In this document: piece after piece, positions 1 through 2,576 of the stretch
How positions within the stretch are numbered: position 1 is the stretch's first letter
How the letters are laid out: each line of letters begins with the position of its first letter
Source: Propionibacteriaceae bacterium
Lineage (GTDB): Bacteria; Actinomycetota; Actinomycetes; Propionibacteriales; Propionibacteriaceae
DNA length: 64,000 nt
Direction of reading: 5' to 3'
Assembly (NCBI GenBank): GCA_031267645.1
Contig: JAIRYW010000058.1
Location: forward strand, 1,106-65,105
Made by a program: the position numbers and the translations under genes
The notes under the pieces: generated by a model
What the model was told of the DNA's origin: nothing
The model's database searches: none
Seen by the model: only the letters and a program-made list of their open reading frames with translations

Positions 1-1003
1 CGATGGCGCTGAAGGCTCCGAACCAGACCAGTGGGGCGCCGTCCGATCGGTTCGGACCGACCCGCGGGGAGCGCAGCCAGCCCCGCCAGGCGGCCCGGGC
101 GGCCCGCCTCAGGTCGGGCCGGTCCAGCCCCGCCCGTAAGGCCAGGTAGCCGTCCAGGTCGAGGAAGGGCAACAGATTGAACAGGACCGTGGCCAGGTTG
201 AGGCCGATCCAGAGCCGGGCCGTGGCCGCCGCCAGCGGCCAACCGGTCCAGACCACCAGGGCGGCCGCCGCGCCGACCTGGCACTGCCAGACCAAGCCGG
301 CCAGGGCCACTTCGACCTGGCCGCGGCGATCCAGCCGGGCGGCTGAGGCGACGTCGCAGTAGAAGGCCGGGCAGCCGTGTACCAAGGTCAGCCCGATGGC
401 CCGGGAGCGGCCTCCGGCCGCCTGTAGCACGACGCCGTGGGCCAGCTCATGGCTGGCCGCCACCGCCACCAGGGCGGCCACCACGATCAGGATGGGGCCG
501 AGTCGGAAGGCCGGGGCCAGACCAGGGCCGGTCAGCCAGGCCACGATTTGGGCGGCCGCGCCGATCACAGCCAAGCCCGCCCCCGGCCAACCCCGCAACG
601 CCCCGGCCCAACCGCGCAGGGCCCGACAGACAGTCGTCGGGTCGAACCACAGCCGCGGGCGGGCCGCCCGCGGCCGGCCCCGTTCGGGGGGCTCGGCCAC
701 GGGCGCTGGGACGTCGGCCGGATGGATCAGTCCGGCCCCGGCCAAAGCGTGGAGAGCCTCCGCGATGGTCGCTTCATCCCAATTCGAGCCGGGCAATCGG
801 GCCGCCAAATCAGCCGGTCCGACCGCCGTGGCGGCGTCGGCGACGGTTTCCAACAGAGTTCCGATGTCGTCGCCCAAGCGAAAGACCCGGCTCTGGCCCA
901 GGCTGGCCAGCGGTCGGCCGCTGCCCTGCTGGCGGGCCAACCGGGTCTCGGGGGCCAACCGATAACGCGGCTGGTCGACCGCTGGGGCGGGGACGACGGT
1001 CAC
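1..1003 (-). CDS. M50-family (site-2-protease-like) intramembrane zinc metalloprotease with a PqqD/RRE-like N-terminal domain; the 3' end runs off the window
   Basis: Absent from the ORF track because there is no stop in the window. My minus-strand translation from GTG 1003 (GGAGG 6 nt upstream) reads VTVVPAPAVDQPRYRLAPETRL... It contains HExxH (AASHELAHGV) and NLLPFLDLDGY (NxxPxxxLDG) inside hydrophobic segments, which is the M50 signature. Confidence 0.8.
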   Translation of the reverse strand, partial: MTVVPAPAVDQPRYRLAPETRLARQQGSGRPLASLGQSRVFRLGDDIGTLLETVADAATAVGPADLAARLPGSNWDEATIAEALHALAGAGLIHPADVPAPVAEPPERGRPRAARPRLWFDPTTVCRALRGWAGALRGWPGAGLAVIGAAAQIVAWLTGPGLAPAFRLGPILIVVAALVAVAASHELAHGVVLQAAGGRSRAIGLTLVHGCPAFYCDVASAARLDRRGQVEVALAGLVWQCQVGAAAALVVWTGWPLAAATARLWIGLNLATVLFNLLPFLDLDGYLALRAGLDRPDLRRAARAAWRGWLRSPRVGPNRSDGAPLVWFGAFSAI

Positions 1004-1026
1004 CTCGGACCTCCGGATTCTTTAAA

Positions 1027-1117
1027 GGTGTGTCTCCCAGACGTCACCGGTCTGGGAGACACACCAGGGGTAGGGCCGCCGCCGGGCCCGGCATCGGGTT
1101 CGGGCCCGGCGGCGGCC
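1027..1117 (-). terminator. Two tandem perfect 16-bp stem-loops between the small ORF and the protease gene (attenuator or processing site)
   Basis: Hairpin A: ggccgccgccgggccc (1074-1089) pairs with gggcccggcggcggcc (1102-1117), 12-nt loop. Hairpin B: ggtgtgtctcccagac (1027-1042) pairs with gtctgggagacacacc (1050-1065), 7-nt loop. On the transcript B is followed by UUUAAAG and then the protease RBS. Confidence 0.6.
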
Positions 1118-1141
1118 GACTTGCTCGTCAGCCTCGTCTCA

Positions 1142-1237
1142 TCAGAGCAAGAGGAGCAAAGCCAAGAACCAAACCACTGGGGCTTCGTTGGAGTCGAATT
1201 CGGTGATGGTGAGGTCTAGTTTGGAATCGGTACTCAT
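1142..1237 (-). CDS. Unannotated 31-aa peptide MSTDSKLDLTITEFDSNEAPVVWFLALLLLL (candidate precursor peptide or small hydrophobic peptide)
   Basis: Hand translation: ATG at 1237, TGA at 1142-1144, AGGA about 9 nt upstream. The N-half is acidic and the last 11 residues are purely hydrophobic. It lies between a MerR gene and the M50 protease and is followed by the twin hairpins. Confidence 0.5.
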   Translation of the reverse strand: MSTDSKLDLTITEFDSNEAPVVWFLALLLLL

Positions 1238-1276
1238 GGCGGGGTTTCCTTTCGGGTGTTTCGGTCTATTCAGTTG

Positions 1277-1705
1277 TCAAGCGGCATGGACTTGGAGCCC
1301 AGCCTGCGCGGTCAATACGGCTGACCCGCCGGTCTGACGCCACTGGGCGATGACCTGGCGTTGGCGTTCGATCTCATGTGCCCGTTCGGCCAGGACCTGG
1401 TCCAGTTGGAGCAGGATGCGTTCGGTCTGGCGACCGCGCGGGTCGTCCAGGGCCTCGGCCACCTGCTCCAGGCTCAGGCCGAGCCGGGTCAGACATTTGA
1501 CGCGCATCAGGATCAAGACGTGTTCGGGGCCGTAGGCGCGATACCCGGAAGAGCTACGTTGCGGCTCCGGCACTAGGCCGATCTTGTGGTAGTGCCGCAC
1601 CGCCCGAGTGGTCAGCCCGACCAGATCGGCCACCTGTTGGCTAGAGAATTCCGGCGGCGCCGGACCTCGGCCGATCGGCTTCGAGGGGGTCTTGGTCCTT
1701 CGCAT
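1277..1705 (-). CDS. MerR-family transcriptional regulator (142 aa)
   Basis: ORF track. The N-terminal HTH QQVADLVGLTTRAVRHYHKIGLVPEPQRSSSGYRAY is classic MerR; a coiled-coil region follows. Confidence 0.85.
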   Translation of the reverse strand: MRRTKTPSKPIGRGPAPPEFSSQQVADLVGLTTRAVRHYHKIGLVPEPQRSSSGYRAYGPEHVLILMRVKCLTRLGLSLEQVAEALDDPRGRQTERILLQLDQVLAERAHEIERQRQVIAQWRQTGGSAVLTAQAGLQVHAA

Positions 1706-1802
1706 GATCCCAGCGAAAACTATGACGTAACGTCAGGGTCAAGGGGCAGCGGAGAATCTGTGCGGAATTTCGTCCGGGGCCTGGGGCGCCGCGGCCGCCG
1801 TC

Positions 1803-2576
1803 TCAGACCAGGAGGCGCTCTTTCAGAGTGATCGAGACCCGTTCGAAGATCTGGCGCTGCAGGTCGGTCAGGTGCTCGTGCACCAAGCTCTGCAGGACGT
1901 CTTTGATCGGGGCGCGGCTGGACCAAGCCTGGCCGGCGTCGATGTCGGCCGCCTGAACCAGGGCCTGACAAGCCGAGACGTAATCCGACACCAATTGGTC
2001 GATCTCCGTCGCCGGCGTCTGGGGGCCGACCGCGCGCAGACGGGAGTCCAACTCGACCAGGCGCTGGGCCTCCGGGCTGGGCGCCATGGCCCGATCCATG
2101 GTGGCGCGCAACCGCTCGACGTCGGCGCTGTCGCCCAACCCGGTCACCACGTCGATGATGATCTTGGCCATCTCCTCGTCGTCGGCCGGGTCGATGTCGC
2201 GCATGGCCAGCAGACGGGCGGCGAACTCGGGCAGGACGTCGATCGCGGCGCCGGTGTCGAGAATCTCGGCGATGGTCTGACGTTGGGCCGCGATCTCGAT
2301 CTGACGGTGGGCCAGTTGGAGGTCCAACCGGCCCAACAGCTCGGTCGACTTCTGGCCGCCCGGATCGCGCATGATCTCGGCCACCTCGGCCAACTGGAAG
2401 CCCAGATTGGTCAGACGCTTGATCCGGAGCAGGTCGAGCACGTTGGCCGGGGTGTAGACGCGGTAATTGCCGTGGGTGCGGTCCGGTTTGGGTAGCAAGC
2501 CGATGGCTTCGTAGTGGCGCAAGGCTCGAATGGTGACCCCGACCAAGTCGGCGATCTGCTTGCTGGTGAACTGCAT
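1803..2576 (-). CDS. MerR-family regulator with a ~190-aa C-terminal effector domain (257 aa)
   Basis: ORF 1803..2912 trimmed to the ATG at 2576 (MQFTSKQIADLVGVTIRALRHYEAIGLLPKPDRTHGNYRVY). The upstream extension is Arg/Pro-rich junk. Confidence 0.8.
   Translation of the reverse strand: MQFTSKQIADLVGVTIRALRHYEAIGLLPKPDRTHGNYRVYTPANVLDLLRIKRLTNLGFQLAEVAEIMRDPGGQKSTELLGRLDLQLAHRQIEIAAQRQTIAEILDTGAAIDVLPEFAARLLAMRDIDPADDEEMAKIIIDVVTGLGDSADVERLRATMDRAMAPSPEAQRLVELDSRLRAVGPQTPATEIDQLVSDYVSACQALVQAADIDAGQAWSSRAPIKDVLQSLVHEHLTDLQRQIFERVSITLKERLLV

What the first reader, a model, noticed from the sequence alone, without database searches (positions are those of the whole stretch)
1..2576. Candidate RiPP-like module at the window edge: MerR, MerR, 31-aa peptide, twin hairpins, RRE-like/M50 protease
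An unannotated 31-codon ORF (1237 to 1142, minus strand) encodes MSTDSKLDLTITEFDSNEAP-VVWFLALLLLL. The first 20 residues are acidic and hydrophilic; the last 11 are purely hydrophobic and run to the stop. It is followed by two perfect hairpins and then an intramembrane M50 metalloprotease (HELAH, NLLPFLDLDG). The first ~100 aa of that protease (PRYRLAPETRL...LGQSRVFRLGDDIGTLLETV...PADLAARLPGSNWDEATIAEALHALAGAGLI) look to me like a PqqD-type RiPP recognition element. A small precursor, a stem-loop and a leader-binding protease is the typical layout of RiPP and bacteriocin loci. The EAP junction plus an M50 protease recalls daptide-type clusters. That recollection is from memory. As I remember them, daptide cores end in Thr, and this one ends in Leu5, so it would be non-canonical. 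The rest of the operon lies left of the window.
Basis: partly seen in the sequence, partly recalled or inferred. Interest (0 to 1): 0.8.

Follow-up and report, generated by a model that had tools for sequence, protein, structure and literature searches.

The report
Daptide-like peptide–protease cassette without daptide chemistry
A real, conserved 31-codon gene sits next to a membrane protease that carries its own peptide-docking domain; both are related to the "daptide" antibiotic pathway, but the modifying enzymes and the essential final threonine are missing, so the cassette probably just releases a tiny, very greasy, tryptophan-containing peptide under the control of two MerR regulators.

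Summary
The 31-aa ORF (1237..1142, minus), two perfect hairpins (16 and 17 bp) and an HExxH/NxxPxxxLDG membrane protease are all present.

- **Protease:** its only strong family match is the daptide intramembrane metalloprotease model NF041824, at 150.7 bits against a cutoff of 300.
- **N-domain:** a confident AF2 model gives an RRE fold (TbiB1, PqqD, MccB, PbtF).
- **Leader:** LDLTITEFDSNEAP aligns with daptide leaders (ELExMEAP).

It is not a daptide. The core ends in Leu, not the required Thr. No mpaB/C/D/M homologue occurs in the 64-kb window or in related loci. In orthologous loci the protease is the last gene of the unit, so no operon continues to the left.

The same four-part unit recurs in uncultured Propionibacteriaceae and Bifidobacteriaceae. 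It comprises two MerR genes, a peptide, a hairpin and the protease. The cores are short and contain Trp: VVWFLALLLLL, IAWFLALLLLL, CWLLLFLL, TLLWW, CWWWVCCR. A conserved 13-bp palindrome precedes merRB.

Most likely the protease removes the leader after Ala-Pro and releases an unmodified 11-mer (1298.84 Da). The peptide's role is unproven: it could be a signal sensed by the MerR pair or a membrane-active peptide. I rate it a new variant of a known kind, of moderate interest.

The parts
1803..2576 (-). merRA: long MerR-family regulator (257 aa) with an N-terminal HTH and a ~150-aa C-terminal domain of unknown family
   Evidence: PF13411/PF00376. The best PDB match of the HTH is TipA-N, 2vz4. 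It is homologous over its full length to the long MerR of L001 (81%), L014/L017 (40%), the daptide cluster L002 (35%), L019 (35%) and L020 (31%). The C-domain has no Pfam or PDB match.
1709..1746 (-). Promoter/operator-like block: TTGACC, the 13-bp palindrome TGACGTTACGTCA (1723-1735), then TAGTTT, ending about 3 nt before the merRB ATG (the TAGTTT hexamer lies about 10 nt upstream of it)
   Evidence: This is the longest identical run between the window and L001 in the whole module (38 nt). The same palindrome sits in the same position before merRB in L006, L014 and L017. It also lies before the MFS gene that heads the L002 daptide cluster and before the ocin-ThiF-like gene of L019. Binding by the MerR proteins is inferred.
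1277..1705 (-). merRB: short MerR-family regulator (142 aa; HTH plus dimerisation helix only), a paralogue of merRA
   Evidence: PF13411/PF00376/PF09278. It is 50% identical to residues 2-111 of merRA. A short or long second MerR is present in L001, L014, L017, L019 and L020.
1142..1237 (-). Precursor peptide gene (31 aa): leader MSTDSKLDLTITEFDSNEAP plus core VVWFLALLLLL
   Evidence: ORF. It was called as a gene in L001, L014, L017, L019 and L020 by independent annotation. The substitution pattern indicates purifying selection. The leader aligns with daptide precursors from L002, L018, L021 and L022.
1074..1117 (-). Hairpin A (17-bp perfect stem, 10-nt loop) directly after the precursor gene
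   Evidence: It is conserved in L001 with compensatory changes. All eight loci examined have a strong hairpin at this position, each with an unrelated sequence. A role as attenuator or mRNA stabiliser is inferred.
1027..1065 (-). Hairpin B (16-bp perfect stem, 7-nt loop), followed by UUUAAAG and the protease RBS (GGAGG)
   Evidence: It is absent from L001, so it is an insertion specific to the window. It is not repeated elsewhere in the window.
1..1003 (-). RRE-fused M50/site-2-type intramembrane metalloprotease (334 of 387 codons lie in the window)
   Evidence: NF041824 daptide_HExxH: E 6e-44, 150.7 bits, cutoff 300, aligned over profile positions 4-372 of 379. AF2 model: pLDDT 86.4, pTM 0.81.
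710..976 (-). RRE-like winged-helix domain of the protease (residues ~10-98)
   Evidence: The AF2 model shows strands 14-16, 20-24, 31-35 and 39-42, then helices 45-56, 63-69 and 77-89. All well-superposed Foldseek hits are RRE domains: TbiB1 5v1v (prob 0.99, TMt 0.64), PqqD 5sxy (0.61), MccB, PbtF RRE, TigE and ThcOx.
437..451 (-). HELAH zinc-binding/catalytic motif (residues 185-189)
   Evidence: H185, E186 and H189 are invariant in 22 homologues.
149..178 (-). NLLPFLDLDG motif (residues 276-285), holding the third zinc ligand Asp of S2P-type proteases
   Evidence: N276, P279, D284 and G285 are invariant in 22 homologues.

Best explanation
This is a self-contained four-gene cassette: merRA, merRB, a 31-aa precursor, a hairpin and an RRE-fused site-2-type protease. 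It derives from the daptide RiPP toolkit but has lost, or never had, the daptide chemistry.

Proposed mechanism:
1. The unit merRB-precursor-protease is transcribed from a promoter that carries a 13-bp palindrome. The MerR pair is presumed to bind it.
2. The hairpin(s) after the precursor gene attenuate read-through or stabilise the short transcript, so precursor mRNA exceeds protease mRNA.
3. The cytoplasmic RRE domain of the protease docks the acidic leader (LDLTITEFDSNEAP).
4. The membrane-embedded HExxH...D site cuts after Ala-Pro.
5. An unmodified 11-mer, VVWFLALLLLL (monoisotopic 1298.84 Da), is released into or across the membrane.

The most likely role is a short hydrophobic signal or effector peptide. 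The C-terminal domain of the long, TipA-like MerR would sense its presence and feed back on the operon.

Shown: homology, predicted fold, catalytic motifs, conservation, and absence of modifying genes. Inferred: the cleavage site (by register with daptide leaders), the lack of modification, MerR binding to the palindrome, and the biological role.
For: **Homology to daptide parts**
- The protease matches NF041824 only. PGAP-annotated mpaP genes are the only plasmid hits.
- The leader register E(-8)F D S N E(-3)A P(-1) matches the published E L D P M E x P / ELExMEAP motif. It also aligns with the precursors of L002, L021 and L022.

**RRE fold**
-.

**Not a daptide**
- The core ends in Leu. [quoted passage not shown]
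- Searches with mpaB/M/D/C from three sources find nothing in the window, L001, L003, L006, L014, L017, L019 or L020. They do find L002.
- The protease is the terminal gene in L001 and L003 and in L020.

**Real and selected**
- Five distinct Thr-less cores (VVWFLALLLLL, IAWFLALLLLL, CWLL[LI]FLL, TLLWW, CWWWVCCR) occur in loci whose proteases are only 38-67% identical.
- All five cores contain Trp, and all five loci carry a MerR pair.

**Regulatory link**
- The palindrome is conserved in six independent loci and is the most conserved stretch between the window and L001.
- A hairpin follows the precursor gene in all eight loci.
Against: - No expression, cleavage or product data exist.
- All instances come from metagenomes or MAGs. 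Only about six independent loci were found, so the family is rare.
- The protease scores below the NF041824 cutoff. The protease of the genuine daptide cluster L002 does too (190 bits).
- The left flank of this contig could not be retrieved. Absence of downstream genes is therefore inferred from orthologous loci.
- The spacing between the TTGACC and TAGTTT hexamers is 14 nt. This is atypical for sigma-70 promoters and for MerR-type promoters (19-20 nt).
- The C-domain of the long MerR has no recognisable ligand-binding family.
- An 11-residue, uncharged, all-hydrophobic peptide is poorly soluble, which is awkward for a diffusible signal.
- Thr-less precursors also occur inside full daptide clusters (L018, L022). 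There they may simply be partner peptides.
Confidence: 0.62

Rival explanations
1. It is part of a genuine daptide, or other fully tailored RiPP, cluster. The modification and export genes lie left of the window or elsewhere in the genome.
For: The protease and leader are homologous to daptide components. The left flank of this contig was not retrievable. In L019 the same kind of cassette lies beside a YcaO/SagB/LanB cluster that shares the palindrome.
Against: The core lacks Thr, Ser and Cys, and it ends in Leu. The daptide pathway requires a C-terminal Thr. In the orthologous loci L001 and L003 the next genes are convergent housekeeping genes. No mpaB/M/D/C was detected in 64 kb of the window or in related loci. 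At most ~2.7 kb of contig remains to the left of the protease (66,891-bp contig against the 64,000-bp window).
Confidence: 0.07
2. The processing is the same, but the product is a membrane-active, bacteriocin- or haemolysin-like peptide rather than a signal. It would be a stripped-down relative of the membrane-targeting daptides.
For: Daptides are hydrophobic helical haemolysins. L020 carries a lantibiotic-protection-like ABC ATPase plus an ABC-2 permease just upstream. Clade 2 is followed by ABC genes. TMcins set a precedent for S2P-processed membrane peptides.
Against: The window, L001 and L003 have no exporter or immunity gene nearby. Cores of 5-11 residues (TLLWW in L019) are too short to span a bilayer or form pores. 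The peptides lack the cationic termini that the daptide authors consider important for membrane targeting.
Confidence: 0.22
3. It is an inactive relic of a decayed daptide cluster with no present function.
For: The modification genes and the Thr are missing. The family is rare. The protease scores lowest on NF041824 among all the relatives scored (138-151 against 170-242 bits).
Against: The ORF, RBS, leader motif, core and catalytic residues are all intact in two clades whose proteases are only ~43% identical. The synonymous substitution pattern supports selection. The core-coding segment and the operator are the most conserved stretches. Thr-less, Trp-containing cores recur with a MerR pair in different gene orders.
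Confidence: 0.06
4. The small ORF is a cis-acting, Leu-rich leader peptide. Its translation controls the downstream hairpins, giving attenuation of the protease gene, and it has no product function.
For: There are seven Leu among the last eleven codons, followed by strong hairpins. The ORF's 3' end (CUUGCUC) can pair with GAGCAAG just 5' of hairpin A (I4). The last 31 nt of the ORF are identical between the window and L001.
Against: The leader is homologous to RRE-binding daptide leaders, and the adjacent protease carries an RRE. Other family members have cores without Leu runs (TLLWW, CWWWVCCR). Selection acts at the amino-acid level in the leader motif. No alternative terminator/antiterminator pair is evident.
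Confidence: 0.03

Closest known systems
Daptide RiPP clusters (MpaA/B/C/D/M/P; Ren et al. 2023, PMC10036551; Dommaraju et al. 2025 bioRxiv 10.1101/2025.07.11.664356)
   Same: - An RRE-fused intramembrane M50 protease homologous to MpaP.
- A precursor with an acidic leader ending in E-A-P in the same register as ELExMEAP.
- A hydrophobic, aliphatic-rich core.
- A strong hairpin after the precursor gene, and the same MerR type and palindrome, in the daptide cluster L002.
   Different: - No C-terminal Thr.
- No MpaB, MpaC, MpaD or MpaM.
- No ABC exporter at this locus.
- A single 31-aa precursor with an 11-aa core, against several ~50-aa precursors in the PGAP-annotated Streptomyces cluster.
- The protease is below the NF041824 cutoff.
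Rgg/SHP and ComR/XIP pheromone systems of streptococci, and enterococcal sex pheromones processed by Eep. This comparison rests on my own knowledge of those systems.
   Same: - A tiny ORF next to transcription-factor genes.
- The active part is the hydrophobic C-terminal 7-11 residues, running to the stop codon.
- Processing is by an M50 site-2 protease.
- Clade-2 loci are followed by Opp-type permease and ATPase genes.
   Different: - The regulators are MerR-type, not Rgg/RRNPP.
- The leader is acidic and is recognised by an RRE fused to a dedicated protease, rather than being a signal-peptide-like sequence cut by a housekeeping Eep.
- No Opp genes are present at the window locus.
- Signalling is a hypothesis here.
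TipAL/TipAS thiopeptide-responsive MerR regulators
   Same: The HTH domains of both MerR proteins are closest to TipA-N, Mta and SkgA among solved structures. The long MerR has a ~150-aa helical C-terminal domain. In L019 the same operator precedes a thiopeptide/TOMM-like cluster.
   Different: The C-terminal domain shows no sequence similarity to TipAS (PF07739) or to any Pfam or PDB entry. Ligand binding is untested.
TMcin biosynthesis (TmcP S2P-clan leader peptidase; PMC13252029)
   Same: The leader of a ribosomal membrane peptide is removed by an intramembrane S2P-clan HExxH...D protease.
   Different: TmcP is a four-TMH DUF3267 protein without an RRE. TMcin has a full transmembrane helix, a disulfide, an escort protein and an ABC exporter.

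Membership tests
Daptide RiPP class | Precursor leader with the conserved ELExMEAP-type motif immediately before the core | tested here: met
   EFDSNEAP is in the same register: E-8, a hydrophobic residue at -7, D-6, E-3, A-2, P-1. It aligns with the L002, L018, L021 and L022 precursors. The NCBIfam library gave no hit for the 31-aa peptide at E<=1.
Daptide RiPP class | Invariant C-terminal Thr, the residue converted to Dmp | tested here: not met
   The core ends ...LLLLL-stop. The same holds in L001, L006, L014 and L017.
Daptide RiPP class | MpaB (DUF-RRE), MpaC (oxidoreductase), MpaD (aminotransferase) and MpaM (methyltransferase) in the cluster | tested here: not met
   tblastn with the L002, S. 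virginiae and A. oris enzymes gave no hit at E<=1e-2 or 1e-3 in the window, L001, L003, L006, L014, L017, L019 or L020. The positive control L002 was hit. The unseen left flank of this contig remains untested.
Daptide RiPP class | MpaP-type RRE-fused intramembrane metalloprotease (NCBIfam NF041824, cutoff 300 bits) | tested here: inconclusive
   The score is 150.7 bits, E 6e-44, with a full-length alignment, and it is the best family hit. It is below the cutoff, but so are proteases from a genuine daptide context (P0018, 190 bits).
RiPP recognition element (PqqD-like RRE) domain | Winged-helix fold of a three-stranded sheet followed by three helices | tested here: met
   In the AF2 model (pLDDT 86-96 over residues 11-100) every well-superposed PDB match is an RRE: 5v1v, 5sxy, 3h9j, 8t19, 8vpo and 5lq4 (prob 0.82-0.99, rmsd 2.9-4.7 A). 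Sequence-only searches recover only generic wHTH families, not PF05402.
RiPP recognition element (PqqD-like RRE) domain | Binds the leader of the cognate precursor | not testable with these tools
Peptidase M50 / site-2 protease clan | HExxH in one transmembrane helix plus NxxPxxxLDG with the third-ligand Asp in another | tested here: met
   HELAH 185-189 and NLLPFLDLDG 276-285, invariant in 22 homologues. PF02163 matches only weakly (18.6 bits against GA 27.2).
RiPP (strict sense) | At least one post-translational modification of the core beyond leader removal | not testable with these tools
   No tailoring gene is linked, and the core has no Ser, Thr or Cys. Chemistry cannot be excluded without mass spectrometry.
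TipA-class MerR regulators | TipAS antibiotic-recognition C-terminal domain | tested here: not met
   Only the N-terminal HTH matches TipA (2vz4, E 6.5e-22). The C-domain has no Pfam or PDB hit.
Rgg/SHP-type peptide pheromone systems | Rgg/RRNPP-family cytoplasmic receptor next to the peptide gene | tested here: not met
   The adjacent regulators are MerR-family.

The most novel reading that the evidence does not exclude
The cassette is a peptide autoinduction (quorum-sensing-like) circuit in Actinomycetota. A dedicated RRE-site-2 protease matures a 5-11-residue Trp-containing hydrophobic pheromone from a daptide-type leader. A TipA-like MerR pair senses the peptide through a new C-terminal domain. 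The pair then activates its own operon, and in some genomes neighbouring RiPP clusters, through the TGACGTTACGTCA operator.
Probability: 0.22. Interest if true: 0.8.

Novelty: new variant of a known kind. Interest (0 to 1): 0.55.

Why it matters
Daptides are defined by a C-terminal Thr and four modifying enzymes. Genome mining for them uses the RRE-protease as a handle.

This locus shows that the leader-plus-RRE-protease pair also exists as a free-standing, conserved cassette. It has ultrashort Thr-less, Trp-containing cores and its own MerR pair and operator. Three things would follow.
1. The RRE-S2P protease would be a modular, portable leader peptidase that can serve unmodified peptides. 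That is relevant to engineering.
2. It points to an unrecognised family of tiny hydrophobic peptides in gut-type Propionibacteriaceae and Bifidobacteriaceae.
3. It would give a testable candidate for peptide-based signalling in Actinomycetota. To my knowledge few such systems have been described there.

The conserved palindrome also provides a handle on how daptide-type clusters are regulated. The daptide papers read here do not mention MerR, and two of the three have no discussion of cluster regulation.

Tried and rejected
- **Extending the contig leftwards.** Exact look-ups of the window's MerR, the peptide and the full protease P0001 found nothing on record. The metagenome scan did not return the window's own contig.
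- **First AF2 run.** A 4-sequence alignment gave a useless model (pLDDT 46). It was repeated with 22 sequences.
- **Related-locus scans.** The genome scan with A5 found only the MAG that is L001.
- **Rfam.** No family was found for the hairpins. A sub-threshold ASdes hit inside merRA (23 bits against 40) was dismissed.
- **Repeat elements.** The hairpin arms have no further copies in the window beyond chance, so a REP/MITE-type element was rejected.
- **Consensus scans.** The sigma-70 scan found no promoter, and the terminator scan did not call the two hairpins because they lack a U-tract.
- **Apparent -35 box.** The conserved TTGACA upstream of the small ORF turned out to be the last codons and stop of merRB (HAA-stop). 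It is not evidence of a separate promoter.
- **MerR C-domain.** Nothing was found in Pfam or in PDB sequences.
- **N-domain by sequence alone.** Only weak generic winged-helix hits were found, with no PqqD.
- **Asp/Glu racemase as a tailoring enzyme.** The gene next to the protease in L001 and L003 was considered and rejected because it is convergent and absent from clade 2, L019 and L020.
- **Habitat.** No paper held the sample or MAG identifiers.

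
Full report
**1. What is in the sequence**

All parts lie on the minus strand of window 1-2576.
- **merRA:** 2576-1803, 257 aa.
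- **merRB:** 1705-1277, 142 aa.
- **Small ORF:** 31 codons, 1237-1142, encoding MSTDSKLDLTITEFDSNEAPVVWFLALLLLL.
- **Hairpins:** two perfect stems, 17 bp at 1117-1074 and 16 bp at 1065-1027.
- **Protease:** a GGAGG ribosome-binding site, then a GTG at 1003. The protein runs off the left edge.

The intergenic RNA folds at -89.8 kcal/mol, z = -8.2 against shuffles. The protease carries HELAH (residues 185-189) and NLLPFLDLDG (276-285). The full-length protein is in the protein collection as P0001 (387 aa, on a 66,891-bp JGI contig). Only 53 codons are therefore missing from the window.

**2. The protease**

- **Family.** Its only strong NCBIfam match is NF041824, 'daptide biosynthesis intramembrane metalloprotease'. 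The score is 150.7 bits (E 6e-44), aligned end to end, but below the curated cutoff of 300. Pfam M50 matches only weakly.
- **Relatives.** An exhaustive HMMER search found 22 proteins at E<=1e-30. The eight scored reach 200-242 bits on the same model.
- **Structure.** With a 22-sequence alignment AlphaFold2 gave a confident model (pLDDT 86.4, pTM 0.81). Residues ~14-95 form strands followed by three helices. A disordered linker and a polytopic helical domain follow, with a beta-hairpin after the HExxH helix.
- **Fold search.** In Foldseek against the PDB, every well-superposed hit covers the N-domain and is an RRE. The hits are TbiB1 with its leader (5v1v, prob 0.99, target TM 0.64), PqqD (5sxy, 0.61), MccB, the PbtF RRE, TigE and ThcOx.
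- **Sequence-only searches.** These recover only generic winged-helix families.

It also agrees with the published description of MpaP as an RRE-fused site-2 protease.

**3. The small ORF is a real gene and a daptide-type precursor**

The orthologous locus L001/L004 comes from a Propionibacteriaceae MAG (JAISCA010000002). Its protease is 67% identical. It has the same order MerR257-MerR144-31-aa gene-protease, and its peptide is MSTETDLDLTITEFDSTEAPIAWFLALLLLL.

Between the two loci the ORF shows 7 synonymous codon changes, including AGT>TCA for Ser, and 6 mostly conservative replacements. The RBS is identical.

A second clade has proteases ~43% identical to the window's (L006/L017, L014). It has MerR-MerR-33-aa gene-protease, with peptides ...[LF]D[LF][ST]VTETD..[QK]AP-CWLL[LI]FLL. 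Synonymous changes occur inside the core.

Two further loci from MAGs carry the same parts:
- **L019 (Bifidobacteriaceae):** ...LDLTIAEYDVTQAP-TLLWW.
- **L020 (Propionibacteriaceae):** ...IDLTITDYDAVDAP-CWWWVCCR.

Each has two MerR genes and the protease.

The leader is homologous to daptide leaders. The published logo is ELExMEAP, with MpaA positions E-8 L-7 D-6 P-5 M-4 E-3 x P-1. The window has E F D S N E A P in that register.

L002 is a genuine, if divergent, daptide cluster. Its protease is P0018, and it carries DapB-, aminotransferase- and Fe-ADH-type genes whose best hits are NF041823, NF041821 and NF041822. Its precursor is MSKRELDLTVSELEPMEAP-FGPIIIIIIIT, also with an 11-residue core but ending in Thr. 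PGAP-annotated 'daptide-type RiPP' genes of Streptomyces virginiae read ...ELEMQELEALEAP-GW...LT.

**4.

Daptides are defined by a C-terminal Thr converted to Dmp by MpaB/C/D/M. [quoted passage not shown] Four findings argue against a daptide here.
- **Core.** It ends in Leu and has no Ser, Thr or Cys.
- **Enzyme searches.** tblastn with MpaB/M/D/C from L002, S. virginiae and Actinomyces oris finds nothing in the 64-kb window, L001 (±10 kb), L003, L006, L014, L017, L019 or L020. It does find L002.
- **Downstream genes.** In L001 and L003 the protease is followed directly by a convergent Asp/Glu-racemase-family gene, a small ORF, FeoB, DUF2017 and ClpS. In L020 it is followed by a convergent glycogen phosphorylase.
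- **Upstream genes.** On the other side the window is syntenic with L001 (GntR/FCD, MaoC, CoA-transferase and so on).

The claim that 'the rest of the operon lies left of the window' is thus not supported, although this contig's own left flank could not be fetched.

**5. The MerR genes and a conserved operator**

The long MerR is homologous over its whole length, including the ~150-aa C-terminal domain, to the long MerR of every related locus and of the daptide cluster L002 (31-81% identity). merRB is a truncated paralogue.

Their HTH domains are closest to TipA-N, Mta and SkgA among solved structures. The C-domain matches nothing.

Just upstream of merRB lies TTGACC-C-TGACGTTACGTCA-TAGTTT, with the TAGTTT hexamer about 10 nt before the ATG. 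This 38-nt block is the longest identical run between the window and L001. The palindrome recurs:
- at the same position in clade 2;
- before the MFS gene that heads the L002 daptide cluster;
- before an ocin-ThiF-like gene in L019.

It is a strong candidate operator for this MerR subfamily, but binding is inferred. The small ORF starts 39 nt after the merRB stop. The apparently conserved TTGACA there is simply the end of merRB, so merRB, the precursor and the protease are probably one transcription unit.

**6. The hairpins**

Hairpin A is conserved in L001 with compensatory changes. Hairpin B is specific to the window.

All eight loci examined, including the two with daptide-type Thr-ended precursors, have a long near-perfect hairpin between the precursor gene(s) and the protease gene. 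The sequences are unrelated and none has a U-tract. Position and strength are conserved but sequence is not. This fits a read-through attenuator or a 3'-end stabiliser that sets a high precursor-to-enzyme ratio. To my knowledge this arrangement is well known in RiPP operons; here it is inferred.

**7. Most likely mechanism and role**

1. The leader docks on the cytoplasmic RRE.
2. The HExxH...D site cuts after Ala-Pro.
3. An unmodified VVWFLALLLLL (1298.84 Da) is released.

I favour a role as a short hydrophobic signal or effector tied to the MerR pair. Four points support this:
- the cores are only 5-11 residues long;
- every core contains Trp;
- two regulators always accompany the pair;
- the window locus has no exporter or immunity gene.

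Clade 2 is followed by Opp-type permease and ATPase genes. This recalls Eep-processed SHP/XIP pheromones, a resemblance drawn from my own knowledge.

A membrane-active peptide role remains a serious rival. L020 has a lantibiotic-protection-like ABC system, and daptides are haemolytic. A decayed relic and pure cis-attenuation are unlikely given the amino-acid-level conservation across clades.

**8. Novelty**

The parts are known from the daptide toolkit. The new element is the stand-alone, Thr-less, enzyme-less cassette with its MerR pair and operator. I found no description of it in the daptide papers held.

Thr-less precursors with daptide-type leaders also occur inside daptide clusters, in L018 and in Actinomyces oris L022, where the gene is annotated as hypothetical. 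The phenomenon may therefore be broader.

Verdict: a new variant of a known kind, of moderate interest.

Noticed in passing
L019:12772-20939 (Bifidobacteriaceae MAG, JGI 3300042616): A SagD-type YcaO lies next to the peptide(TLLWW)/protease/MerR/MerR cassette. It is divergent from an ocin-ThiF-like gene, a SagB dehydrogenase and a LanB-N dehydratase. The same palindrome (CTTGACGTTACGTCAAG, 14710) lies just upstream of the ATG of the ocin-ThiF-like gene. This suggests the MerR pair also controls a thiopeptide/TOMM-like cluster.
   Followed up: partly
L018:1196-1457; L022:5662-5790 (Actinomyces oris plasmid NZ_CP116225): Thr-less precursors with daptide-type leaders sit beside Thr-ended ones. 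L018 has LIILPPLWWLWLL next to VVWFVVIIVIT. A. oris has MDKPMNLDTEITEFESLDAP-DWKDSAAALGVLFGLGALIALI, annotated 'hypothetical protein', inside a cluster with mpaM and mpaD.
   Followed up: partly
window 1142-1172 and 1118-1141: The last nine sense codons plus the stop of the small ORF form a 31-nt run identical to L001. The 3' end CUUGCUC can pair with GAGCAAG just before hairpin A. The cause is unclear: nucleotide-level constraint or chance.
   Followed up: partly
window 4486-4494: A second copy of the 9-nt core ACGTTACGT of the palindrome lies inside the coding start of the 158-aa ORF 4472-4948. It lacks the flanking TTGAC and TAGTTT context and is probably chance.
   Followed up: no
window 21767-29383 (-): A 2538-aa protein with 16 DUF7507 repeats plus DUF7927, probably a large surface or adhesin-like protein. 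The opposite strand carries long spurious-looking ORFs.
   Followed up: no
window 51418-55908 (+), 44817-47225 (-), 40534-43617 (-): A 1496-aa DUF5107 plus TPR protein, a GH36 alpha-galactosidase and a 1027-aa double-ABC ATPase. They look like housekeeping or carbohydrate genes unrelated to the cassette.
   Followed up: no
L005:1-250 and L015:1-220: In two clade-2 contigs the spacer between the post-precursor hairpin and the protease start holds an insertion with extra hairpins. These include GAAAGACACCAG...CTGGTGTCTTTC and a duplicated CCCAGGAGACTGGTGTCTTTCC. This spacer appears to be a hot spot for palindromic insertions, like hairpin B in the window.
   Followed up: no
L001:17797-21170: A large RHS/YD-repeat toxin-type gene (DUF6531, RHS_repeat, TEN_YD-shell) lies 6.6 kb downstream of the protease in the Propionibacteriaceae MAG.
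   Followed up: no
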